NCBI GenBank assembly: GCA_016931115.1
Contig: JAFGFM010000149.1
Span: 5,050 to 69,049 of the forward strand
Reading direction: 5' to 3'
Origin: Deltaproteobacteria bacterium
GTDB lineage: Bacteria; Desulfobacterota; DSM-4660; Desulfatiglandales; HGW-15
Length of the DNA: 64,000 nt
The notes under the pieces are model-generated. The model did not search any database and had not been told where the DNA came from. It was given only the letters and a program-made list of their open reading frames with translations. The translations under genes and the position numbers were made by a program. Positions 43,659 to 61,830 of the stretch are shown here, piece by piece (the stretch's first letter is position 1; every line of letters begins with the position of its first letter).

Positions 43659-45479
43659 ATGGGGTTCTTCATTAAAAATATATCAATCATATCAGGCGCA
43701 TCTTCGGTCATCTTTCGTGTAATCTTTATTGTAATTTTATTTAGTATAGTTTTTAAATGCAGTTATTGCCTCTGTAAAGAAGAAGCCATCTATAAGGTTG
43801 AGTTTGAAGGGATAAAAAATAATGACATCCTGAAACCTGTGCGCGACCTCTCCCGAACTCTTGAGCTGGCATCAAGGCCCTTCGGTTCAATGAGCATGCT
43901 CAGAAAAAGGGTCAGGGAAGATATAGATCTATTCCAAAGGTTCCTCAAGTCAGAGGGTTACTTCAAGGCTGAGATCAAAGAAAAAATAGATACAGATAAA
44001 AGCCCCTGGCTAGTTATCTTTGATTTTACCCTCAACAGGAGGTTTATCATCGAATCGGCTGATACAATCTTTACTGATGATATTAAAGACGCGATCAAAA
44101 CGGCTGATCTTTCGCAGAGCGGTATTGTATTAAAGCAGCAATACCGATCAAAGGATATCCTTGATGGTGAACATAGACTCCTCCTTCTTTTAAAGAAACT
44201 GGGATTTCCTTATGCGGTTGTGGAAAAAAGAGAGATCGTTGCGGATCATGACACCGAGAAGGTAAAGGTCCATTTTTTAATCAACCAAGGCAGAAGGGCA
44301 AAGTTTGGTAAAACCTCATTCAGCGGGCTAACAGATGTTGATCCGGCATTTCTGATAAAACTGATTCCATGGAAAGAGGGAGATCTATATGACCCGGAAC
44401 TTCTTAAAGCCTATTATTCAGAACTGATGAACCTGGGCCTCTTTTCAATAGTGAGGATCATAGAAACAAAGGGCGACTCAGAAGAGCACCTTCTTGTTCA
44501 GGTAGAGGTTACCGAGCGTAAACACAGCACTGTAAGCGCTGGAGTAAGCTATCATACGGATGAGGGGCCGGGTCTCAAATTTTCATGGGAAAATCGAAAC
44601 CTGTTCAGCCATGGTGAAAAGCTGGGCCTGAATGTGAATCTGTCAGACTATGCAATAGCAGCAGAAGGCACCTTTAGAAAACCGATATTTCTCAGGAGGG
44701 ATCAGTCGCTGCGGTTTTCCATTCAAAAATCCTATGAAGACCCTGACGCATACACCAGCGACAGTTTTTCAGGGTCTCTCTTTATTGACAGGCAAGTGAC
44801 AGCCAAACTGGATACAGGCCTGGGTCTCACATACAAGTGGTCTGAAATAGATCAGCTTGATATTGTTAAGAGTTACTCCCAGATATCTCTACCACTGCAC
44901 CTGGGTCTTGATACCAGTGATGATCTGCTTGACCCTGTGAGAGGCAGCAGGTTTTCAGTCAAGATCACACCTTTTTATGAACTCACCCATGAATCCATGT
45001 TCTTTAATAAAGGGCTCATTAATTACAGGCATTATCTTAAGGTAATGGATGACCCTGTTTCAATACTGGCCGGGAGCATCACATTTGGAATAATCAAGGG
45101 CGCTGGTCATTATGAGATCCCTGCCACTGAAAGGTTTTATGCTGGGGGAGGCGGATCAGTAAGGGGTTATCCATTTCAGTCTGTAGGCCCTTTATCAGGC
45201 ACAACACCGCTTGGAGGAAAGTCTTTGCTGGAGATGTCGCTTGAATCAAGGTGGAGAGTCACAAAAAATCTGGGGCTTGTCCTGTTTCTGGATGGAGGGA
45301 GCGCCTTCTCAGAAAGGCCCTTTGGCAATGGTGAAGAGATCAGGTGGGGAACAGGCATGGGTTTAAGATACTTCACGATTATCGGCCCCTTAAGGCTTGA
45401 TATTGGCATCCCCCTTGATAAAAGAGAGGAGATTGACAACTCCTTTCAGGTCTATATCAGTTTAGGACAGGCATTTTAA
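43659..45479 (+). CDS. tamA: TamA/BamA-family outer-membrane protein (POTRA plus surface-antigen barrel)
   Basis: POTRA-like repeats, C-terminal barrel ending in ...ISLGQAF, and immediately followed by tamB. Confidence 0.8.
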   Translation: MGFFIKNISIISGASSVIFRVIFIVILFSIVFKCSYCLCKEEAIYKVEFEGIKNNDILKPVRDLSRTLELASRPFGSMSMLRKRVREDIDLFQRFLKSEGYFKAEIKEKIDTDKSPWLVIFDFTLNRRFIIESADTIFTDDIKDAIKTADLSQSGIVLKQQYRSKDILDGEHRLLLLLKKLGFPYAVVEKREIVADHDTEKVKVHFLINQGRRAKFGKTSFSGLTDVDPAFLIKLIPWKEGDLYDPELLKAYYSELMNLGLFSIVRIIETKGDSEEHLLVQVEVTERKHSTVSAGVSYHTDEGPGLKFSWENRNLFSHGEKLGLNVNLSDYAIAAEGTFRKPIFLRRDQSLRFSIQKSYEDPDAYTSDSFSGSLFIDRQVTAKLDTGLGLTYKWSEIDQLDIVKSYSQISLPLHLGLDTSDDLLDPVRGSRFSVKITPFYELTHESMFFNKGLINYRHYLKVMDDPVSILAGSITFGIIKGAGHYEIPATERFYAGGGGSVRGYPFQSVGPLSGTTPLGGKSLLEMSLESRWRVTKNLGLVLFLDGGSAFSERPFGNGEEIRWGTGMGLRYFTIIGPLRLDIGIPLDKREEIDNSFQVYISLGQAF

Positions 45480-45494
45480 AAGGATATAGTCAAT

Positions 45495-48400
45495 ATGAAG
45501 ATATCAGGGAGATATAGAATAATCAGAAAGGTTGCAGGGTATGGAGCACTGGTTATTTCCGTGCCTGTCCTAGCCTGCATACTCCTTTTTTCCATGATGC
45601 AGACCAACTATATCAAGGGGGTTTCTGTTAATCTTCTCAACAGATATGTCCTTTCAGAACATGGTATCAGGCTTGAAGCGGGCAGTATAAAGGGGATATT
45701 ACCCTTTAATTTTGTTATCAGCGAGCTTGGCATTCATGACATGAAAGGCAGGTGGATGCACCTCAGTGGGTGTTCCGTGCATATACTCCCTTCAAGGCTT
45801 CTTACAGGCCGCCTTTACATAAAAAAGATCATTGTTGATAAGGTTGTTGTAGAAAGGTTGCCCCACAGGGATGAAGAGCCCGGCAAAAAGGTTTTAGAGG
45901 GTTTTACAATCCCTTCATTTCCTGCATGGATATTGATCGAAGATATTCAGGCCCTTAATATTAACCTTGATAAAACCATAATGGGCCAACCTTCAGAGTA
46001 CTCTCTTTCAGGCGGCATTATTGGCACTGGTGTAAAAGATGTCACATCCTTCAGCCTTGAATTAACCGGCACAAAAGGCCATGCAGGGTCACTTTTATTT
46101 ACCTCCCTGATCAACAGTAATAGTAAATATTTTGAGGCAAGGCTTGTTGTAAGAGACCCTGGCAAGGGCCTGCTTTACTCTCTTACGGGCGCAGGTATTG
46201 ATTTCACCCTTGATTTTGAGGGGAAGGGAACCTTTTCAGACTTTAATGGCAGGCTCAATGCATCAGGCAGTGATGCAGGAGAAATAACCTCTGATATACA
46301 GGTTGAACTGAAAAAGGATTACCTGTTTAATATCTCAGGGGAGTTTAAACCTTCTGACTCCCTTGTGAAGGATATAGGCAGGTGCATACCTGCAAATATA
46401 GTGGGGTTCAGAATAGATGCCGGTCTGACCCGCAAAAAGGAAATATTCTTCAATATGGTTGAAATAAGAACAGGCGAGATGGTCTCAGTATACACAGGCT
46501 CATTTAAGCCTGCTGATCTTTCTGTGGCAGGGGATCTCCATCTGGATATCAAAGATATAAAGTGTCTTGAACAGTATATGGGGGGATATACAGCCCGCGG
46601 ATTAAAAGTTGAAGGCAGGTTAAAAGGTAAACTCTTCAGACCTGATATTGATCTGACTTATCGTGCAGCTGAGCTTGCGGATGAGGATGTAAAGCTCCTT
46701 GATATAAGCGGGACAGGGCGAATAAGGTTCACGGATGAAAAAGATCATGCCTCAAACATAGCTTTATCCGGGAGCGGTTCCATTGGTGAGATCCTGATTG
46801 TTTCAGGAGATAAAAAAAACCATGATAAAAAGGTCTCTTATGGATTTAATCTGCTGAACAGGGCTGGCAGGAGAGTGGAAGCGGAAATGGTTAAGGTTGA
46901 ATCTGAAAAGTTTATAATCCATGCATCAGGAGCCATGGATTTTCTCAATAATAATCTGATTCTTAAAGGCGATGGAAAAATATCAGCCCAGGTGCACAGG
47001 GGAGAATACAGCCTTGAGGCTGTGTCAGAATTTGCTGTTTCAGAGAGTGATATCTCATTTGAGAATTTTGCTATATCCGGCATGGAGACCAGGATTAATG
47101 GGAACATAAACTACAGCAGGGTGAAACATATATTAAACGGCATGATTTATGTTTCAGCGGATGATCTCTCGGAAATAACCTCTCTGTCAGGCTACAAAAC
47201 AACAGGTGCAGCGTCAGGAGAGGTTCTGTTCACTGAAGAAAATGAAGACCAGAGAGTGGAATTTCACCTCTCTGCAGAGGATGTAGAGTATAAAGAGAAC
47301 CTTGTAGAGGGTATAGATATAACAGGCCATGTATCTGATATGTTCGGCTCTCCCTATTTCATGCTTAAGACATCTCTCAGTGAATATAATTATAAGGGGG
47401 CTGAGCTTGAAAAAGTAGATATAACTGCCAGCGGCAGAAAAGAGGAGACCCGGATTCTTTTTAAAGGCAAGGTTCGTGCCCCCCTTGAAACACTCTTTGA
47501 GGCAGAGGCGACATTTGCTGATACTGGCGGGGAAAAAGAAGCGGGGCTGACCACCCTTATGATCTCATACGGTGAAACCCGTATAACACTTATGGAACCT
47601 TTAATGGTGCACTATTCAAATGATGAGGCGCTTATCAGGGAAATCAATATTGGTGTTGATACAGGGAAGATCACTGGTTTTATGGATTATTCCACTGGAG
47701 GGATGCATGGGGATATTCATATTGAAAAGATGCCTCTATCCCTCCTCTCCCTTGCAGGCGTAAATGACCTTGAAGGAGCGATGGATGGAAAAATCACTAT
47801 TGGCGGTACACCTGTCATGCCTGATATATCAGGCAGCATGGATATCAGCGGTGTCAGGATAAAGGAGATAAAAAACAGCAGGGTCCCGCCTGTTGATATC
47901 AGTACATCTTTTCTTATAAATAGCGAGTCCATGTCAGGAGAGCTAAGCCTTCAGGGGTTATCCGGCACCTCTATTAGGGGCATGATGAGGGTCCCATGCA
48001 GTTTCTCAATCTATCCCTTCATGTTTGATACTGATGATGACGCCCCGCTAAATGGAGGCCTTAAAGGGGAGTTTGACCTTGCAGCCATTACATCCCTGTT
48101 TGATATCCATGATCAGATGGTCAAAGGGAGGCTTGTTGCTGATTTTGAGATAAGCGGGCTCTACACCTCTCCGCTTATAACAGGCAGGGCTCTCCTTTCA
48201 GAGGGTGGCTATGAGAACACAGGCATGGGTATTGTCCTTAACAATATCAGGGCTGATTTATCTGCGGACAGGGGCGAAATTATTGTTCATCATATTTCAG
48301 CTGATGACGGATCAAAAGGAGAGGTAATAGGAAAGGGCCAGATCAGTTTTGATACATTGCAGAGTTTCAGGTATAACCTCTCCATCTCTCTTAAAGAGAT

Positions 48401-49334
48401 GCAGTATGCAGGGAATGATATGCTGAGCTTTACCACCGGAGGAGATGCAGAGATATCAGGGTCATCAGGTGAACACAATATTTCAGGCCGGTTCAATGTT
48501 GAAAAGGCGGATATACAGATCCCTGAAAAGCTGCCCTATGCGATCACTGATATTGAAATAAGGGAGATCAATATAAAGAACAGGCCTGTAACTGAAAAGG
48601 CTGCTAAGAGACCTGAGAAGAGCAGGGTCAATTTTAATATATCAATATCGAGCAGCGGCAGGGTCTATATTTACGGCAGGGGGCTGGAATCGGAATGGAA
48701 GGGCGATCTTAATATAAAAGGAACAGCAGGTGCCCCTGTTTTAAGCGGTGAACTTACTCTTGTAAGGGGGAATTACAACTTCCTTTCAAGGCCTTTTATA
48801 CTTACCCGGGGGACAGTCGTTTTTTCAGGGAAATCACCCCCTGAGCCATATTTTGAGGTGACTGGCAGGGCCGTTAACAATAATATCTCTGCCTATGTGA
48901 ACCTGAGAGGGAATATTAAATCACCGGTCTTCACACTCTATTCAGAACCTGCCCTGCCGCAGGATGAGATCATGGCAAGAATACTGTTTGACAGGGAGGT
49001 ATCACAGATTACACCCATACAGGCGCTGCAGCTTGCAGGGGCCGTAAACGAGATGATGGGGAAAAAGGGCTTTGACCCTCTGGCCTATACCCGAAATCTC
49101 ATAGGAGTGGACTGGCTGCAGGTAAAACAGTCAGAGGAAAGCCCCGGAGAATCAGCCTTAAGTGCAGGAAAATATCTGGGGGATAGTATTTATGTGGAGA
49201 TTGAAAAGGGTATAAGCGCTGAAAGCGGAAAGGTCTCGGTTAGATGGGAGCTCTCACCCAGCATAACAGTTGATACCAGTGTGGGAGAAAATGGTGATAC
49301 AGAAACGGGTATTAATGTTAAACATGATTACTGA
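45495..49334 (+). CDS. tamB: Translocation and assembly module protein TamB (DUF490)
   Basis: 1279 aa, N-terminal signal-anchor, long beta-rich body, and a DUF490-type C-terminus (LSAGKYLGDSIYVEIEKG...). Confidence 0.8.
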   Translation: MKISGRYRIIRKVAGYGALVISVPVLACILLFSMMQTNYIKGVSVNLLNRYVLSEHGIRLEAGSIKGILPFNFVISELGIHDMKGRWMHLSGCSVHILPSRLLTGRLYIKKIIVDKVVVERLPHRDEEPGKKVLEGFTIPSFPAWILIEDIQALNINLDKTIMGQPSEYSLSGGIIGTGVKDVTSFSLELTGTKGHAGSLLFTSLINSNSKYFEARLVVRDPGKGLLYSLTGAGIDFTLDFEGKGTFSDFNGRLNASGSDAGEITSDIQVELKKDYLFNISGEFKPSDSLVKDIGRCIPANIVGFRIDAGLTRKKEIFFNMVEIRTGEMVSVYTGSFKPADLSVAGDLHLDIKDIKCLEQYMGGYTARGLKVEGRLKGKLFRPDIDLTYRAAELADEDVKLLDISGTGRIRFTDEKDHASNIALSGSGSIGEILIVSGDKKNHDKKVSYGFNLLNRAGRRVEAEMVKVESEKFIIHASGAMDFLNNNLILKGDGKISAQVHRGEYSLEAVSEFAVSESDISFENFAISGMETRINGNINYSRVKHILNGMIYVSADDLSEITSLSGYKTTGAASGEVLFTEENEDQRVEFHLSAEDVEYKENLVEGIDITGHVSDMFGSPYFMLKTSLSEYNYKGAELEKVDITASGRKEETRILFKGKVRAPLETLFEAEATFADTGGEKEAGLTTLMISYGETRITLMEPLMVHYSNDEALIREINIGVDTGKITGFMDYSTGGMHGDIHIEKMPLSLLSLAGVNDLEGAMDGKITIGGTPVMPDISGSMDISGVRIKEIKNSRVPPVDISTSFLINSESMSGELSLQGLSGTSIRGMMRVPCSFSIYPFMFDTDDDAPLNGGLKGEFDLAAITSLFDIHDQMVKGRLVADFEISGLYTSPLITGRALLSEGGYENTGMGIVLNNIRADLSADRGEIIVHHISADDGSKGEVIGKGQISFDTLQSFRYNLSISLKEMQYAGNDMLSFTTGGDAEISGSSGEHNISGRFNVEKADIQIPEKLPYAITDIEIREINIKNRPVTEKAAKRPEKSRVNFNISISSSGRVYIYGRGLESEWKGDLNIKGTAGAPVLSGELTLVRGNYNFLSRPFILTRGTVVFSGKSPPEPYFEVTGRAVNNNISAYVNLRGNIKSPVFTLYSEPALPQDEIMARILFDREVSQITPIQALQLAGAVNEMMGKKGFDPLAYTRNLIGVDWLQVKQSEESPGESALSAGKYLGDSIYVEIEKGISAESGKVSVRWELSPSITVDTSVGENGDTETGINVKHDY

Positions 49335-51875: not shown

Positions 51876-51909
51876 AGCCCTGATATCTGCTTTTGTCAGG
51901 GCTTTTTTA
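51876..51909 (+). terminator. Rho-independent terminator of cstA
   Basis: AGCCCTGA / TCAGGGCT stem, 12-nt loop, then TTTTTT. Confidence 0.7.
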
Positions 51910-52119
51910 AAGCAGGGTATAAAGGCATCATCAAATTTTATCATGCCTTGACATATTAATTTATTCTGGTAGCATTGCACAGGCAAATTGCCCTATTGCT
52001 AAGATCAGTATTGCCGGACAAATTGTCCGGGCAGCCTGAAAAAGGCAAAATATGGTGTTAAACTGATCAATATAGTTAAATGGGTGTTTTACGAACATTT
52101 TTTTAAACGAGGTTATAAT

Positions 52120-53475
52120 ATGAAGATTAAGACTGCACTTTTCTCATTGATTATTTGCGCGCTCTTTTCGTTCCTCATGGTTTCGGGTTCATCCAGCACA
52201 GAAGGAAACAAAAGGATAGTACTGGCTTACAGCAATAATGTTGAGGGGTATCTTGAACCATGCGGGTGAGCTGAAACCGGTGAGATGCTCGGTGGGCTCT
52301 ATAAAAAAACAACATACCTTAATGAATACAGGAAAACCGAAAAAAATCTTGTTGTTGTGGATTCCGGTGACCTGCTTAATGAACATACCCAGATTAAAGA
52401 ATCATTCATTGCCACTGCAAAACTTAAGGGTGAATTGATTACCAAGATCCAAAAAAATATTGGGATTGATGCAATCAATGTAGGTGAACTTGAGCTGGCC
52501 CTTGGCCTGGATTACATCAAGGATATTGAGAAAAAATATGATGTGCCATTTGTTTCAGCCAATATTGTCAATGATAAAAAGGAGCTTGTGTTCAAGCCAT
52601 ATGTGATCAAAAACATAGACAATATCAAGGTCGGTATAATCGGCATCATGGGAACCACACCTGATGTGGTAAAACCATTTGAGGAGATCGTCGGGTCTAC
52701 ATTATCTGTCCTTGACCCAATAGAAACCGTAACAGCAAAGGTTGCTGAACTCAGGGACAAGGTGGATTTTGTTATTGTCCTGACACATCAGCACATGGGC
52801 CGCAACTGGATCATTGCCAGAAAGATAAACGGCGTTGATGTTATTGTGGGCGGTCACCACAAACAGAAACTTGAAACCCCATATGAGGCTAATAATACCT
52901 ATATAGTACAGGCTGGTGAGAAGGGACAGCATCAGGGCATGCTCGTTATCGAAAAGGCTGCTGATGGCACAAAGACAGTCACAAACAAACTTGTCTCTAT
53001 GAGCGACAAGATTGCCGATGACCCAAAGGTCAAAGGCATGATTGATGAATACAACATGGAGGTTAATAAACTCTATACCTCTGGGCCTATTGTGAAAGAT
53101 GAGGCTGTAACTTTAAGATCCGCGTCATGTAATGACTGCCACAGTGATGCCTACGAGATCTGGCAGAAGACCGATCATGCAAAGGCATTCCAGACACTTA
53201 TTAATAAGGACAGGCAATTCAATCCTGACTGTCTTGTATGTCATACAACCCGTTTTGAGGAGGCAGGCGGTTTCACCATGAAGGCACAGGAAAAGGAGCT
53301 TAGAAATGTCCAGTGCGAATCATGTCATGGTGACAAGACTGAGCATCTGAATGATCCAAGTGTTGTGTCACAGGCAAAACCAGGCGTTGAGACCTGTTTG
53401 AGATGCCACACTGAGCACAGGTGCCCTGATTTTGAGAAGGAATATCAAAAGGAATGGGAGCAGATTAAACACTAG
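52120..53475 (+). CDS. Periplasmic UshA/5'-nucleotidase-like protein fused to a tetrahaem cytochrome c; candidate selenoprotein (in-frame TGA at 52267..52269)
   Basis: Track ORFs 52084..52269 and 52285..53475 share one frame and are separated only by a TGA. Signal peptide from ATG 52120 (GAGG SD). Metallophosphoesterase/5'-nucleotidase-like body. C-terminal CNDCH, CLVCH, CESCH and CLRCH. Confidence 0.6.
52283..52300 (+). promoter_or_regulatory. SECIS-like hairpin downstream of UGA 52267
   Basis: AGA(U)GCUC-GGU-GGGC-UCU: 3 bp, a bulged U, 4 bp (one G-U), and a GGU apical loop 21 nt after the UGA. Confidence 0.45.
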
Positions 53476-53510
53476 AATCTGGCTAAAGCCATTCATATCT
53501 GTATAAACAA

Positions 53511-53544
53511 AGAGACCCTGTCCAATGGACAGGGTCTCTTTTTA
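53511..53544. terminator. Strong rho-independent terminator between convergent genes
   Basis: AGAGACCCTGTCC-AAT-GGACAGGGTCTCT (13-bp perfect stem), followed by TTTTT. Confidence 0.8.
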
Positions 53545-53584
53545 TAACCCGATTATTTATCCTCTTATTTTCAGATATTGTTAA

Positions 53585-53628
53585 CCATTAACCATTCACA
53601 ATTCACCATTTACCATTTACCATTTACC
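53585..53628 (-). repeat. Heptad array CCATTTA on + (GGUAAAU in the sense of the upstream minus-strand gene)
   Basis: CCATTAA CCATTCA CAATTCA CCATTTA CCATTTA CCATTTA CC. Starts 12 nt beyond the stop of the CheZ-like gene. Confidence 0.85.
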
Positions 53629-53639
53629 GCAAATCTTTT

Positions 53640-54671
53640 TTACAGCCCCAGGCTTGAGAGCAGGTCATCAACATCATCCTGTCTGGCAAGTCCCTTCGTC
53701 CCGCTTCGTTCATAACCTGTCATTAACTGATTATTTTTATCCTTATCAATATTATGCCAGTTCAGTTTGAGTTTCTGTGCAATCTTGGTTATCTGATTCT
53801 GAAATGTCTCTATGGTTGGTATTATTTTCAGGAGCTGCTGGCCGATCCTGTCCTGTATCTGCTGTGTGCTGTTGAGGTTGAGGCTCTGTCTGTTTATAAA
53901 ATCCAGCTTGTCCATGAGGTTCTCTATGTGTTCAATGACAAGGTTGTTCGATGAGTCACTGTTGGCCTTTATCTGTAAAATCTTAGCCCTCATTTCCTTT
54001 TCAATATCAAAGAAGTTCTCAACTATTTCAAGAACAGCGTTTGTCTGAGTCTCTGTCTCCGATATGATATTTTCAAGCCTTTTCAGTGCCGTCGGAATAC
54101 TTTCTATATTCGAATGATTCAGGTCATTCTCAAGCTCGGTTGTGGATGTAAGAAAGTGCTGCAACACATCCTTGAGCCCCTCTATTATCTGTGTCTCCTC
54201 GCCCTTATTTTCTGGATTCATCACCCTTGCATGGATTTCCTGTATGGTAAAGAGCCTTCTCTGGGCAATAACCGCTATATCCCTCTGTTCCTGTGTAATA
54301 AGGCCCTGTTCAAGCAGGAATGTACCCAGTACCTTCCCTTCAGGCTTTATGGCAAGCATTTCATCTACGCTCTCCCTGTCAAGGTAAGAGAGGCGGACAA
54401 GGGCCTCACCATAATATTCAACCGGCGGAATCTGGAGATATATCTGCACCGCCTTTACGCTCTGCCTCAGCCCATCTTCATTTCTCATACCCTTTGTTAA
54501 TGCCTCTGCTACAGTATTAATCAAGGGCGCAAGTCGCCTTGTATTTGTACACTGGTCCTGATAGATACAGTACTCAAGAAATAGCTGGGCAGCGATTTCT
54601 GCCTGATCATTTGTATCGTAACTATTTAATATTTCTTTAATGACTGATAATCCGCTTTTGTTTTCCGACAT
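53640..54671 (-). CDS. CheZ-like phosphatase candidate
   Basis: C-terminal QDDVDDLLSSLGL resembles the CheY-binding tail of CheZ (recalled as ...DQVDDLLDSLGF). QQIQDRIGQQL resembles the catalytic FQDLTGQ region. Long helical middle. Confidence 0.5.
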   Translation of the reverse strand: MSENKSGLSVIKEILNSYDTNDQAEIAAQLFLEYCIYQDQCTNTRRLAPLINTVAEALTKGMRNEDGLRQSVKAVQIYLQIPPVEYYGEALVRLSYLDRESVDEMLAIKPEGKVLGTFLLEQGLITQEQRDIAVIAQRRLFTIQEIHARVMNPENKGEETQIIEGLKDVLQHFLTSTTELENDLNHSNIESIPTALKRLENIISETETQTNAVLEIVENFFDIEKEMRAKILQIKANSDSSNNLVIEHIENLMDKLDFINRQSLNLNSTQQIQDRIGQQLLKIIPTIETFQNQITKIAQKLKLNWHNIDKDKNNQLMTGYERSGTKGLARQDDVDDLLSSLGL

Positions 54672-60770: not shown

Positions 60771-60845
60771 ATGAAAGAAAGGTATATGAAATTTGGGCTG
60801 CTGGCATCCGGGCTTGGGATCGGGCTCATGCTTTTTTCGATGTAA
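60771..60845 (+). CDS. Candidate 24-aa hydrophobic peptide
   Basis: GGGAGG 5 nt before ATG 60771. Translation is MKERYMKFGLLASGLGIGLMLFSM. Too short for the track. Confidence 0.25.
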   Translation: MKERYMKFGLLASGLGIGLMLFSM

Positions 60846-60891
60846 GTATAGTCATAAAGAAGACAGGGCAGAGAAAAGAGGAAAGGGAATT

Positions 60892-61830
60892 ATGAAAGAG
60901 GCATATGTTCACGGGTATGACCCGCGGGAGAATATACGTTTACAGGATCAGGCTGAAACGCTTGTTGAGCTGCTCCATTCTGATACATTTTATTCTGAAG
61001 GAAGCCTTGTGCTTGAGGCAGGGTGCGGTGTTGGTGCACAGACAGTAACACTGGCAAAGAATAGCCCAGGGGCATCTATAGTATCTGTGGATATCTCTGA
61101 TATTTCGGTTAAACAGGCAGAAGAGAAGGTGCGTGATGCGGGGTTTACTAATGTACAGTTCAGGCAGGGGGATATCTTTAACCTGCCGTTTGCGCCACAG
61201 ACATTTGATCATGTATTTGTCTGCTTTGTGCTTGAGCACCTTAATGATCCCGTGTTGGCACTGAAAACACTTAAAACATATCTCAAGTTCAATGGCACCA
61301 TCACGGTTATTGAAGGGGATCATGGCTCCACATATTTTTATCCTGACAGCGAGGCTGCACATTCTGCTATCGACTGTCAGGTAGCTTTGCAGGCTCGGGC
61401 AGGAGGAAATGCCCTTATAGGCAGGGCGCTTTACCCATTGCTTACATCCGCAGGGTACAACTCTGTAAAGGTCTCACCCAGGATGGTTTATGTAGATGCC
61501 AGCAAGCCTGCGCTTGTTGACGGGTTCACCAGAAAAACCTTTACCGCCATGATTGAGGGTGTGCGCCATTCTGCCATCACGAACAATATTATAGACCCTG
61601 ACACATTTGATAAGGGTATAGAAGACCTGTACCGCACAACAGAGGCTGACGGTGATTTGTGCAAAGTTGGAATATCCCCATTTCGTAGAGACAAGGCATG
61701 CCTTGTCTCTTGTTTCCCCCGATCATCTTGGGAACGTTTTGGTTTGACGCTCCTCATCTTCCAAAAAATGATAGCTGCTATTAAGAATTGGATATCTGGT
61801 TTTCCCTTTACATCCCCTGCTTTACAGTAA
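60892..61830 (+). CDS. Class I SAM-dependent methyltransferase with an aberrant 3' end
   Basis: Motif I LEAGCGVGAQT from ATG 60892 (AGAGGAAAGGG upstream). After ...TTEADG the reading frame runs through a 24-bp perfect palindrome and continues as a low-plausibility sequence. Confidence 0.7.
   Translation: MKEAYVHGYDPRENIRLQDQAETLVELLHSDTFYSEGSLVLEAGCGVGAQTVTLAKNSPGASIVSVDISDISVKQAEEKVRDAGFTNVQFRQGDIFNLPFAPQTFDHVFVCFVLEHLNDPVLALKTLKTYLKFNGTITVIEGDHGSTYFYPDSEAAHSAIDCQVALQARAGGNALIGRALYPLLTSAGYNSVKVSPRMVYVDASKPALVDGFTRKTFTAMIEGVRHSAITNNIIDPDTFDKGIEDLYRTTEADGDLCKVGISPFRRDKACLVSCFPRSSWERFGLTLLIFQKMIAAIKNWISGFPFTSPALQ
61687..61710. repeat. 24-bp perfect palindrome, best copy of the GTAGAGACAAGGCA element
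   Basis: AGAGACAAGGCATGCCTTGTCTCT, preceded by CGT. Lies inside the 3' part of the methyltransferase ORF. Confidence 0.8.

What the first reader, a model, noticed from the sequence alone, without database searches (positions are those of the whole stretch)
52120..53475. UshA-like / tetrahaem cytochrome c gene interrupted by one in-frame TGA: candidate C-G-U selenoprotein
The two track ORFs (52084..52269 and 52285..53475) are in the same frame, and the only thing between them is TGA 52267..52269. Read through, the product is signal peptide, then ...IVLAYSNNVEGYLEPCG-U-AETGEMLGGLYKKTTYLNEY..., then a 5'-nucleotidase/metallophosphoesterase-like body, then four CxxCH motifs.

The first ORF alone would be only a signal peptide plus about 35 residues. 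The second ORF alone would lack a signal peptide, yet it carries four c-type haem sites that need export.

The TGA sits directly after Cys-Gly, a redox-pair context. It is followed by a hairpin with a bulged U and a GGU apical loop 21 nt downstream. These are the features known to matter in the E. coli fdhF SECIS.

The usual DxH metal ligands at the N-terminus appear to be replaced (SNNVEG), so the domain may not be a phosphoesterase at all. A fusion of this fold to a tetrahaem module with a Sec/Cys pair would suggest a periplasmic redox enzyme of unknown chemistry.
Basis: partly seen in the sequence, partly recalled or inferred. Interest (0 to 1): 0.75.

Follow-up and report, generated by a model that had tools for sequence, protein, structure and literature searches.

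The report
Known UshA-like tetrahaem selenoprotein gene
The in-frame TGA is a genuine selenocysteine codon in one exported haem protein, but the gene belongs to a selenoprotein family that was catalogued years ago, so it is a correct rediscovery whose biochemical function is still unknown.

Summary
One reading frame runs from ATG 52120 to TAG 53475 and is interrupted only by TGA 52267-52269, directly after Cys-Gly. The interpretation, a C-G-U selenoprotein, is also supported.

- In 118 related loci from many phyla, the aligned codon is TGA in 89 and TGC or TGT in 29. No other codon occurs there.
- 77 of the 89 TGA loci carry a hairpin with a GG-initiated apical loop 19-29 nt downstream. Only 1 of 28 Cys loci does, and only 3.4% of random TGAs in this window do.
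- In the window's own clade, Sec forms always encode L-G-G-L as CTC GGN GGG CTN, which builds the hairpin. Cys forms with the same residues use CTT GGC GGY/A, which does not.
- TGA is an ordinary stop codon elsewhere in the window.

The gene is not new. It scores 356.6 bits (cutoff 275) on NCBIfam NF041198, "UshA-like (seleno)protein, PCGU". That model also covers the tetrahaem C-terminus. The family has been listed since 2008 or earlier. The public record for this gene calls only the truncated 396-aa ORF.

The classical metallophosphatase ligands are degenerate and are not conserved across the family, whereas P-C-G-U/C and the four CxxCH motifs are invariant. The function is uncharacterised. 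It is probably a periplasmic haem-coupled Sec/Cys redox enzyme.

The parts
51948..51975 (+). Sigma-70-like promoter candidate (TTGACA-16-TG-TAGCAT) in the 279-nt intergenic region upstream of the gene.
   Evidence: This is a consensus match only, and fewer such matches were found than in shuffled sequence, so the evidence is weak.
52109..52112 (+). Shine-Dalgarno GAGG, 7 nt before ATG 52120.
   Evidence: Read directly from the sequence.
52120..53475 (+). Complete selenoprotein coding sequence: 450 residues plus Sec50, ending at stop TAG 53473-53475.
   Evidence: Translation. NF041198 scores 356.6 bits against a cutoff of 275. Full-length Cys homologues are 45-75% identical over 98-100% of the length.
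52120..52194 (+). Sec-type signal peptide, roughly residues 1-25 (MKIKTALFSLIICALFSFLMVSGSS). There is no twin-arginine motif, and the cleavage site is not determined.
   Evidence: Sequence features and conservation of the pattern in homologues. This is an inference, because no signal-peptide predictor was available.
52210..53079 (+). Remodelled 5'-nucleotidase-type metallophosphatase N-domain, roughly residues 31-320. It lacks the 5'-nucleotidase C-terminal substrate-binding domain.
   Evidence: Foldseek against PDB gives E = 1e-23 to 3IVD, UshA and CD73. Pfam Metallophos scores 23.5 bits and no 5_nucleotid_C hit was found.
52258..52269 (+). Invariant P47-C48-G49-U50 motif (CCA TGC GGG TGA). 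The Sec codon is 52267-52269.
   Evidence: Invariant in 122 of 122 aligned family members, with U or C at position 50. Across 118 loci the codon is TGA in 89, TGC in 22 and TGT in 7.
52283..52300 (+). SECIS-type hairpin AGA[U]GCUC-GGU-GGGCUCU, with bulged U 52286 and apical loop GGU 52291-52293. The internal ATG 52285 that gene callers use as a start lies inside it.
   Evidence: Local folds. 77 of 89 TGA loci carry a GG-loop hairpin against 1 of 28 Cys loci. The synonymous-codon contrast is 15/15 Sec forms against 0/4 Cys forms.
53128..53472 (+). Cytochrome c554-type tetrahaem module. The CxxCH motifs are at 53128-53142, 53230-53244, 53314-53328 and 53395-53409. Conserved distal His candidates are H353, H409 and H451.
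   Evidence: Pfam PF13435 scores 61.9 bits. It aligns to c554 (1BVB) and OcwA (6I5B). All 123 family sequences have exactly four CxxCH motifs. H353 and H409 are 100% conserved and H451 88%.
53509..53543 (+). Intrinsic-terminator-like element: a perfect 15-bp inverted repeat (AAAGAGACCCTGTCC / GGACAGGGTCTCTTT) with loop AAT, running into a T-tract.
   Evidence: Read directly from the sequence. The consensus scanner did not list it, probably because the stem extension absorbs the T-run.

Best explanation
Positions 52120-53475 form one gene for an exported selenoprotein of the known 'UshA-like (seleno)protein, PCGU' family (NCBIfam NF041198).

Translation is proposed to work as follows. UGA 52267-52269 is decoded as selenocysteine. 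SelB-Sec-tRNA(Sec) is recruited by the hairpin at 52283-52300, which lies inside the coding sequence 13 nt after the UGA and has a GGU apical loop and a bulged U.

The product has three parts:
- a Sec-pathway signal peptide;
- a 5'-nucleotidase-type metallophosphatase fold that has lost the metal-1 ligands, the catalytic His and the nucleotide-binding C-domain;
- a cytochrome c554-type tetrahaem module in place of that C-domain.

The invariant Pro-Cys-Gly-Sec loop follows the former motif-I strand. By homology it therefore sits at the old active-site pocket.

The most likely mechanism is inferred, not shown. In the periplasm the four c-type haems would shuttle electrons between the respiratory chain and a Cys48/Sec50 selenol-thiol (selenenylsulfide) redox centre, which acts on a small, still unidentified substrate.

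What is shown: the single reading frame, family membership, Sec/Cys column conservation, a hairpin specific to the TGA forms, and the degenerate metal site. What is inferred: export, SelB dependence, redox chemistry and substrate.
For: - **Family membership.** NF041198 scores 356.6 bits against a cutoff of 275, over profile positions 3-266. The C-terminal haem part alone matches positions 355-517 of 519 (E = 4.5e-40).
- **Sec/Cys column.** 18 of 19 full-length homologues read EPCGC. Among 118 loci from Desulfobacterota, Acidobacteriota, Eisenbacteria, Planctomycetota and others, 89 have TGA, 29 have TGC/TGT and none has any other codon.
- **Coding upstream of the TGA.** The sequence upstream of the TGA is conserved as protein (Y37, N40, Y44, P47, C48, G49).
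- **Hairpin specificity.** 77 of 89 TGA loci have a hairpin of 4 bp or more whose loop starts with GG, 19-29 nt after the UGA. The figure is 1 of 28 for Cys loci and 3.4% for random TGAs in the window.
- **Codon choice.** For the same residues (M/Q)LGGLYKK, 15 of 15 Sec forms use CTC GGN GGG CTN, which forms the stem. All 4 Cys forms use CTT GGC GGT/GGC/GGA, which does not.
- **Genetic code.** TGA terminates 7 of 39 long ORFs in the window, so it is not reassigned.
- **Start site.** A good Shine-Dalgarno sequence precedes ATG 52120 and none precedes ATG 52285.
- **Fold and ligands.** Foldseek gives E = 1e-23 to 5'-nucleotidases. Relative to 3IVD, DxH becomes NxE, GNH becomes GEL and GHxH becomes GHHK.
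- **What is conserved.** Family-wide, D84, H223 and H246 are only 50-57% conserved, while PCG[U/C], GG and the 4 CxxCH motifs are 100% conserved.
- **Literature.** PMC2398784 and PMC13188914 list the family with a CxU motif.
Against: - No Sec-decoding genes (selA, selB, selD, selC) are visible. The window has no tRNA gene, and none of the 19 ORFs scanned is SelA, SelB or SelD. The rest of the genome could not be searched.
- The window's hairpin is weak in isolation (-5 kcal/mol, z = -0.77). The unconstrained 70-nt fold prefers a different structure.
- No compensatory double substitutions occur in the stem within the clade, because the 4 core pairs never vary. Structural support therefore rests on the Sec-versus-Cys contrast, not on covariation.
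- Rfam has no matching model.
- The AF2 model has pLDDT below 50 for the CGC loop (residues 46-54) and for much of the haem domain. The position of Sec relative to the haems or the residual metal site is therefore unknown.
- No conserved gene neighbours give a functional clue.
- No experimental characterisation of any family member turned up in the four keyword searches of the paper library.
Confidence: 0.9

Rival explanations
1. The TGA is a strain-specific nonsense mutation or an assembly/sequencing error, and the gene is a pseudogene or really carries TGC/TGT.
For: The sequence comes from a metagenome-assembled genome. One metagenomic homologue (P0076) has TGG/Trp at this column, which shows that single-base variants of the codon do occur.
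Against: The same TGA occurs at the same column in 89 independent loci from several phyla. The reading frame is intact on both sides and the TGA forms carry their own hairpin. The closest relatives L001-L003 (68-81% identity) all carry TGA.
Confidence: 0.02
2. Two separate genes: a small secreted peptide (52120-52269) and a cytoplasmic 396-aa protein that starts at ATG 52285, as in the public annotation.
For: Gene callers annotate exactly this 396-aa ORF (P0001, and many hits at 88% coverage).
Against: No ribosome-binding site precedes ATG 52285, and that ATG lies inside the hairpin. Four c-type haem sites need export, but this ORF has no signal peptide. In Cys-form relatives the two parts are one continuous polypeptide. 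The truncated calls occur in exactly the TGA loci.
Confidence: 0.01
3. The UGA is read through, but not as selenocysteine. It could be near-cognate Trp or Cys insertion, or the organism may have lost the Sec machinery so that the gene is a relic.
For: The Sec machinery could not be checked in this genome. P0076 encodes Trp at the site.
Against: TGA is a normal stop codon in the window. The aligned residue in non-TGA relatives is always Cys, the standard Sec/Cys signature. Codon choice preserves the SECIS-type hairpin, which implies ongoing selection for SelB-dependent decoding. The nearest relatives are Desulfatiglans-like Desulfobacterota; by general knowledge deltaproteobacterial lineages are selenoprotein-rich, though this was not tested here.
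Confidence: 0.05
4. Functionally it is still a metal-dependent hydrolase of the UshA/SoxB type, for example a thiosulfohydrolase-like enzyme. On this view the haems merely accept electrons and Sec/Cys is accessory or a metal ligand.
For: The second-best NCBIfam hit is SoxB TIGR04486 (E = 8e-31). In the window's own clade the four metal-2-site positions are invariant (D84, H223, H246) or nearly so (E123, in place of Asn), so a mononuclear metal site could survive there.
Against: The SoxB score of 106.9 is far below its cutoff of 550. Three of the four metal-1 ligands and the catalytic His of GNH are replaced. Family-wide the remaining ligands are only about 50-57% conserved, whereas PCG[U/C] is invariant. 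There is no 5'-nucleotidase C-terminal substrate domain.
Confidence: 0.1

Closest known systems
NCBIfam NF041198 'UshA-like (seleno)protein' (UshA_like_PCGU), the 'COG0737 UshA-like, CxU' selenoprotein family of Zhang & Gladyshev
   Same: It has the same P-C-G-U motif and the same architecture of a metallophosphatase-like N-domain followed by a multihaem C-terminus. It scores above the curated cutoff, and both halves match the profile. Sec/Cys interchange occurs at the same column.
   Different: The window protein has 451 residues against a 519-position profile, and profile positions about 267-354 are not matched. It is therefore a shorter-linker version. In the public record it is not annotated as a selenoprotein.
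Bacterial SECIS elements (E. coli fdhF type; the bSECISearch consensus)
   Same: The hairpin lies inside the ORF shortly after the UGA. The apical loop begins with GG(U) 21 nt after the UGA, and a bulged U sits on the 5' side of the upper stem. Those are the features reported as SelB determinants in fdhF; this is established knowledge and was not tested here.
   Different: The stem is short (7 bp including G-U pairs, -5 kcal/mol). Other clades of the family place the hairpin in a different codon register, with GGC, GGA or GGUCUG loops and no bulge. No Rfam family matches.
5'-nucleotidase / UshA / CD73 family (PDB 3IVD, 1USH, 4H1Y)
   Same: The N-terminal calcineurin-like fold is shared (Foldseek E about 1e-23, TM about 0.54 over about 320 residues). 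Motif II GD and the His residues of motifs IV and V are retained in this clade.
   Different: DxH becomes NxE, GNH becomes GEL, and the last ligand of GHxH becomes Lys. The nucleotide-binding C-domain is replaced by four c-type haems. A Cys-Gly-Sec loop follows motif I.
Thiosulfohydrolase SoxB (TIGR04486; PDB 2WDC)
   Same: It belongs to the same superfamily and is periplasmic. It gives the best non-family NCBIfam hit (E = 8e-31).
   Different: The score of 107 is far below the cutoff of 550. The dimanganese ligands are not kept. SoxB has no haem and no Sec.
Cytochrome c554 module (Nitrosomonas c554 1BVB/1FT5; OcwA 6I5B; the related MccA)
   Same: There are four CxxCH motifs with c554-like spacing, plus the conserved W..T.HAKA distal-His motif. 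The c554 module is described as containing a penta-coordinated haem (PMC9250108). Here only 2-3 distal His residues are conserved for 4 haems.
   Different: Here the module is fused to a non-haem domain carrying Sec. Whether one haem is open-coordinated or contacts the Sec loop is unknown.
NCBIfam NF049981 'UshA-like (seleno)protein family 2' (CxxU)
   Same: It is a weak N-terminal match (E = 5.7e-8 over residues 35-91). It is also a UshA-like selenoprotein.
   Different: The score of 32.5 is below the cutoff of 140. The motif differs (CxxU against CxU), and the profile is 262 positions long without the haem module.

Membership tests
NF041198 UshA-like (seleno)protein (PCGU) | Whole-protein HMM score at or above the curated cutoff of 275 bits. 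| tested here: met
   356.6 bits, E = 2e-106.
NF041198 UshA-like (seleno)protein (PCGU) | P-C-G-U/C motif, with UGA or Cys at the fourth position. | tested here: met
   EPCG-TGA at 52258-52269. The column is TGA or TGY in 118 of 118 loci.
NF041198 UshA-like (seleno)protein (PCGU) | Both the N-terminal UshA-like part and the C-terminal multihaem part of the profile are matched. | tested here: met
   Profile positions 3-266 and 355-517 of 519 are matched. About 88 linker positions are unmatched.
Bacterial selenoprotein gene (SelB/SECIS-dependent) | An in-frame UGA aligned to Cys in homologues, with coding conservation on both sides. | tested here: met
Bacterial selenoprotein gene (SelB/SECIS-dependent) | A stem-loop in the bSECIS distance range after the UGA, with G in the apical loop. 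| tested here: met
   The window hairpin is at 52283-52300, with the loop GGU starting at nt +22. 77 of 89 TGA loci have such a hairpin against 1 of 28 Cys loci.
Bacterial selenoprotein gene (SelB/SECIS-dependent) | Covariation supporting the stem. | tested here: inconclusive
   No double compensatory changes were found in 15 clade sequences. The core pairs are invariant.
Bacterial selenoprotein gene (SelB/SECIS-dependent) | The genome encodes selA, selB, selC and selD. | not testable with these tools
   The window has no tRNA gene and no Sel protein among the 19 ORFs scanned.
Bacterial selenoprotein gene (SelB/SECIS-dependent) | Selenium incorporated into the protein. | not testable with these tools
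   This needs 75Se labelling or mass spectrometry.
5'-nucleotidase / UshA metallophosphoesterases | Calcineurin-like N-terminal fold. | tested here: met
   Foldseek E = 1.2e-23 to 3IVD and 1e-22 to 1USH and CD73.
5'-nucleotidase / UshA metallophosphoesterases | Dimetal ligand motifs DxH, GD, GNH(E/D), H and GHxH/Q, plus the catalytic His. | tested here: not met
   The alignment to 3IVD shows NxE, GD, GEL, H and GHHK. Family-wide, D84 is 50% conserved, H223 52% and H246 57%.
5'-nucleotidase / UshA metallophosphoesterases | C-terminal nucleotide-binding domain (5_nucleotid_C). | tested here: not met
   No Pfam hit was found. The C-terminus is Cytochrome_C554.
SoxB thiosulfohydrolase (TIGR04486) | HMM score at or above 550. 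| tested here: not met
   106.9 bits.
Cytochrome c554-type tetrahaem module (PF13435) | Pfam gathering score met and four CxxCH motifs present. | tested here: met
   61.9 bits against 20.8. All family sequences have 4 CxxCH motifs. It aligns to 1BVB.

The most novel reading that the evidence does not exclude
The invariant Cys-Gly-Sec loop may not be a free selenenylsulfide couple. It may instead complete a catalytic haem site. The c554-type module is described as having one penta-coordinated haem, and this family conserves only 2-3 distal His residues for 4 haems. Sec50 and Cys48 could therefore ligate, or sit over, the open haem, possibly holding a metal ion as the two Cys residues do in the haem-copper site of MccA (recalled from memory, not tested). 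That would be a selenolate-haem, or haem/Se-metal, active site for reducing a sulfur, selenium or nitrogen oxyanion. Such a cofactor arrangement has not been described in nature.
Probability: 0.1. Interest if true: 0.8.

Novelty: already known. Interest (0 to 1): 0.25.

Why it matters
For genome annotation, the public record truncates this gene to a 396-aa cytoplasmic "hypothetical protein". The correct product is a 451-residue exported tetrahaem selenoprotein.

For biology, the UshA-like PCGU family is abundant. More than 500 related stretches were confirmed in each of the two collections scanned, and three quarters of the loci with an identifiable PCG column use Sec. No experimental characterisation of any member turned up in the library searches.

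The analysis narrows where to look. The phosphoesterase metal site is vestigial. The invariant features are the Cys-Gly-Sec/Cys loop and the four haems. The gene is usually stand-alone.

None of this makes the finding itself new. It is a textbook Sec/Cys-pair selenoprotein in a catalogued family.

Tried and rejected
- **Rfam.** Neither the gathering thresholds over the whole window nor a permissive E-value scan of 52230-52360 found a SECIS family. The only hit was a spurious STnc480 match.
- **Covariation.** A test on 15 clade sequences was uninformative because the core stem is invariant.
- **Gene neighbourhood.** I clustered 2,572 flanking ORFs from 123 loci. Recurrent neighbours (LptD, T2SS E/F, Cys/Met PLP enzyme, sigma-54 activator, Mur ligase) are clade-specific synteny and not family-wide partners. 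The window's neighbours are shared only with L001-L003. Similar-sized ORFs near the acidobacterial loci proved not to be homologous.
- **Xanthine-dehydrogenase-family cluster.** The cluster with PSII_BNR and MauE occurs only beside two Cys-form genes. I rejected it as a general partner.
- **AF2 modelling.** I modelled the Cys homologue P0002 instead. The N-domain is confident, but the CGC loop and the haem domain are not, so no Sec-haem or Sec-metal geometry could be derived.
- **Other selenoprotein genes.** A scan of the window for other in-frame TGA junctions found no convincing second case.
- **Sel genes.** A search among 19 window ORFs found none.
- **SoxB membership.** Rejected on score.
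Full report
**1. Observation**

Reading 51900-53700 and translating 52120-53475 confirms a single frame interrupted only by TGA 52267-52269.
- The product starts MKIKTALFSLIICALFSFLMVSGSSS..., continues ...IVLAYSNNVEGYLEPCG-*-AETGEMLGGLYKK..., and ends with four CxxCH motifs (CNDCH, CLVCH, CESCH, CLRCH) before TAG 53473-53475.
- ATG 52120 has a GAGG Shine-Dalgarno sequence 7 nt upstream, and ATG 52285 has none.
- A perfect 15-bp inverted repeat followed by a T-tract at 53509-53543 ends the unit. The gene therefore looks monocistronic.

**2. Identity**

The joined protein (U written as C) scores 356.6 bits on NCBIfam NF041198, "UshA-like (seleno)protein", model name UshA_like_PCGU. This is an equivalog model with a cutoff of 275.
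- The C-terminal 161 residues alone match profile positions 355-517 of 519 (E = 4.5e-40). The fusion to the multihaem module is therefore part of the curated family definition and is not a novelty of this locus.
- Pfam sees Cytochrome_C554 (61.9 bits) and a marginal Metallophos match, with no 5'-nucleotidase C-domain.
- The literature lists "COG0737, UshA-like, CxU" among previously described prokaryotic selenoprotein families in the 2008 GOS study, with 76 Sec and 92 Cys sequences (PMC2398784).
- The same family appears, with NF041198, in reviews from 2022 and 2026 (PMC9312934 and PMC13188914).
- The library searches turned up no experimental characterisation of any member.

**3. Is the UGA really a Sec codon?**

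*(a) Homologues.* The database search returned 668 relatives.
- The exact 396-aa ORF is deposited as [quoted passage not shown]. That is a truncated call.
- Hits fall into two length classes. About 395-404 aa at 88% coverage start right after the TGA. About 450-454 aa cover 100%.
- The 19 full-length proteins align over the whole query. 18 of them read EPCG-C at the Sec column, and one (P0076) has Trp.

*(b) DNA level.* I fetched 80 genomic and 80 metagenomic loci.
- In the 118 loci where the PCG-x column could be located upstream of at least 300 open codons carrying at least 3 CxxCH motifs, the codon is TGA in 89, TGC in 22 and TGT in 7. It is never anything else.
- TGA forms come from Desulfobacterota, Acidobacteriota, Eisenbacteria, Planctomycetota, Latescibacterota, Calditrichota and others. 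Cys forms are mostly from Gammaproteobacteria and Nitrospinota.
- In every TGA locus the mechanical ORF starts after the site, and in every Cys locus it starts before it.

*(c) Genetic code.* TGA terminates 7 of 39 long ORFs in the window, so the code is standard.

**4. SECIS**

Folding nt +9..+50 after the site gave the following results.
- 77 of 89 TGA loci have a hairpin of 4 bp or more whose apical loop begins with GG (GGC, GGA, GGU or GGUCUG). The loop starts 19-29 nt after the UGA.
- Only 1 of 28 Cys loci has such a hairpin.
- The background for random TGA triplets in this window is 3.4%, or 1.3% for stems of 7 bp or more.

The hairpin sits in different codon registers in different clades. 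It lies over L-G-G-L in the window clade and over L-A-R-R-A-S in Eisenbacteria. It is therefore not a by-product of one conserved peptide.

Within the window's clade the control is clean. Both forms encode the same (M/Q)LGGLYKK.
- 15 of 15 Sec forms use CTC GGN GGG CTN, which pairs CUC with GGG.
- The four Cys forms (L161/L162, L163, L164, L165) use CTT GGC GGT/GGC/GGA, and no hairpin forms.

Four caveats apply.
- Alone the hairpin is weak (-5 kcal/mol, z = -0.77).
- The global fold prefers another pairing.
- There are no compensatory double changes in the clade.
- Rfam has no model for it.

**5. The protein**

*Fold.* An AF2 model of the Cys homologue P0002 (74% identical) is confident for residues about 30-320. 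It is poor for the CGC loop (residues 46-54) and for the haem domain, as expected without cofactors. Foldseek places the N-domain with 5'-nucleotidases (3IVD, UshA, CD73; E about 1e-23).

*Metal ligands.* The profile alignment to 3IVD pairs the motifs as follows.

| 3IVD | This family |
|---|---|
| YTNDLHAH | YSSNVEGY |
| DAGD | DSGD |
| GNHEF | GELDL |
| LIHEG | LTHQ |
| GHAH | GGHDK (HHK in the window) |

Three of the four metal-1 ligands and the catalytic His are therefore replaced. The metal-2 positions persist in this clade as D84, E123 (in place of Asn), H223 and H246.

*Family-wide conservation.* I aligned 122 sequences.
- Even the metal-2 positions are only 50-57% conserved.
- P47, C48, G49, U/C50, G58, G59, G83, the four CxxCH motifs, H353 and H409 are 100% conserved. 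H451 is 88% conserved.
- The selected features are therefore the Cys-Gly-Sec/Cys loop, which follows the former motif-I strand and hence lies at the old active-site pocket by homology, and the haems.

*Haem module.* It aligns to Nitrosomonas c554 and to the OcwA N-terminal module. That module type is described as containing a penta-coordinated haem (PMC9250108).

**6. Context**

Neighbours in the window are shared only with the nearest relatives L001-L003. They are a TIGR03546/BspA-like 185-aa protein, a CstA-like transporter, a convergent 343-aa protein with weak CheZ similarity, an FAD-dependent oxidoreductase and rpsA.

Clustering all flanking ORFs from 123 loci gave only clade-specific synteny (LptD, T2SS and similar). 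The gene is a stand-alone unit, and context gives no functional partner.

No Sel machinery is present in the window. The rest of the genome could not be examined.

**7. Mechanism, with basis**

Shown:
- one ORF with a conserved UGA/Cys column;
- a hairpin specific to the UGA forms and maintained by codon choice;
- family membership;
- a degenerate phosphoesterase site;
- four haem-attachment sites.

Inferred from established knowledge:
- SelB/SECIS-dependent Sec insertion;
- Sec-pathway export (signal peptide without a twin-arginine motif);
- periplasmic haem attachment.

Inferred with moderate confidence: Sec50/Cys48 form the catalytic redox centre and are wired to the respiratory chain by the tetrahaem module. 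The substrate is unknown.

A more adventurous reading is not excluded and was not testable here. On that reading Sec/Cys completes an open-coordination haem site, loosely analogous to the Cys-assisted haem sites of related multihaem enzymes.

**8. Verdict**

The work adds four things:
- a corrected gene model for a mis-annotated MAG gene;
- a Sec-versus-Cys codon-choice demonstration of the SECIS;
- the finding that the metallophosphatase ligands are not conserved family-wide;
- the finding that no conserved gene neighbourhood exists.

Interest is low to moderate. Novelty: already known.

Noticed in passing
window 52285-53475: The public record annotates only the 396-aa ORF downstream of the TGA, as 'hypothetical protein JW927_16715' in a Deltaproteobacteria MAG. 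Dozens of database homologues at 88% coverage are truncated in the same way.
   Followed up: yes
P0003 / P0004; L161, L162: One Desulfatiglans MAG (locus-tag prefix GX654) carries both a Cys-type paralogue (GX654_08965, 453 aa) and a Sec-type paralogue (GX654_21815, called as 398 aa). The Sec type is the closer of the two to the window gene (87% against 74%).
   Followed up: partly
P0076: One metagenomic homologue reads PCG-W (Trp) at the Sec/Cys column. TGG is one base away from TGA, so this may be a sequencing error, a real substitution or a mis-call. It comes from a single 1.6-kb contig.
   Followed up: no
L162 1-13362 and L164 1-7359: In two different genomes the Cys-form gene sits next to MauE/DoxX-like, PSII_BNR (Ycf48-like) and xanthine-dehydrogenase-family genes. 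L164 shows the full set (Fer2_2, MoCoBD, FAD_binding_5), while L162 shows MoCoBD and FAD_binding_5 with intervening genes. The full cluster is not seen at any Sec-form locus; one Sec-form locus (L081) has an FAD_binding_5 homologue, and L163 also has a MoCoBD gene upstream.
   Followed up: partly
L047 6151 and 7573; also L108, L077, L116: Tandem paralogues of the family lie side by side in Eisenbacteria and related contigs. In L047 both copies carry PCG-TGA.
   Followed up: no
L012 (QMSR01000145.1, labelled Thermoplasmata archaeon): A 3.4-kb contig binned as archaeal carries a family member with a bacterial-style in-ORF hairpin (UGGC-GGUCUA-GCCA). It is nearly identical to the deltaproteobacterial loci L014-L016, so the contig is probably mis-binned.
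   Followed up: no
window 53584-53628: A 7-nt tandem repeat (ACCATTT, 6.4 copies, 89% matches) lies in the short spacer between the selenoprotein gene and the convergent ORF 53640-54671.
   Followed up: partly
window 60793-61830: A class I SAM-methyltransferase ORF gives weak sub-threshold hits to several methyltransferase selenoprotein models (ArsM/DUF2284, UXPK-star). The matches cover only the generic methyltransferase core, and no in-frame TGA is evident.
   Followed up: partly
window 43659-49334: A TamA-like gene (606 aa) and a TamB-like gene (1279 aa), an outer-membrane assembly pair, lie upstream of the locus. In Eisenbacteria the family gene instead follows LptD. This is probably coincidental, since both are envelope-biogenesis genes.
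   Followed up: no
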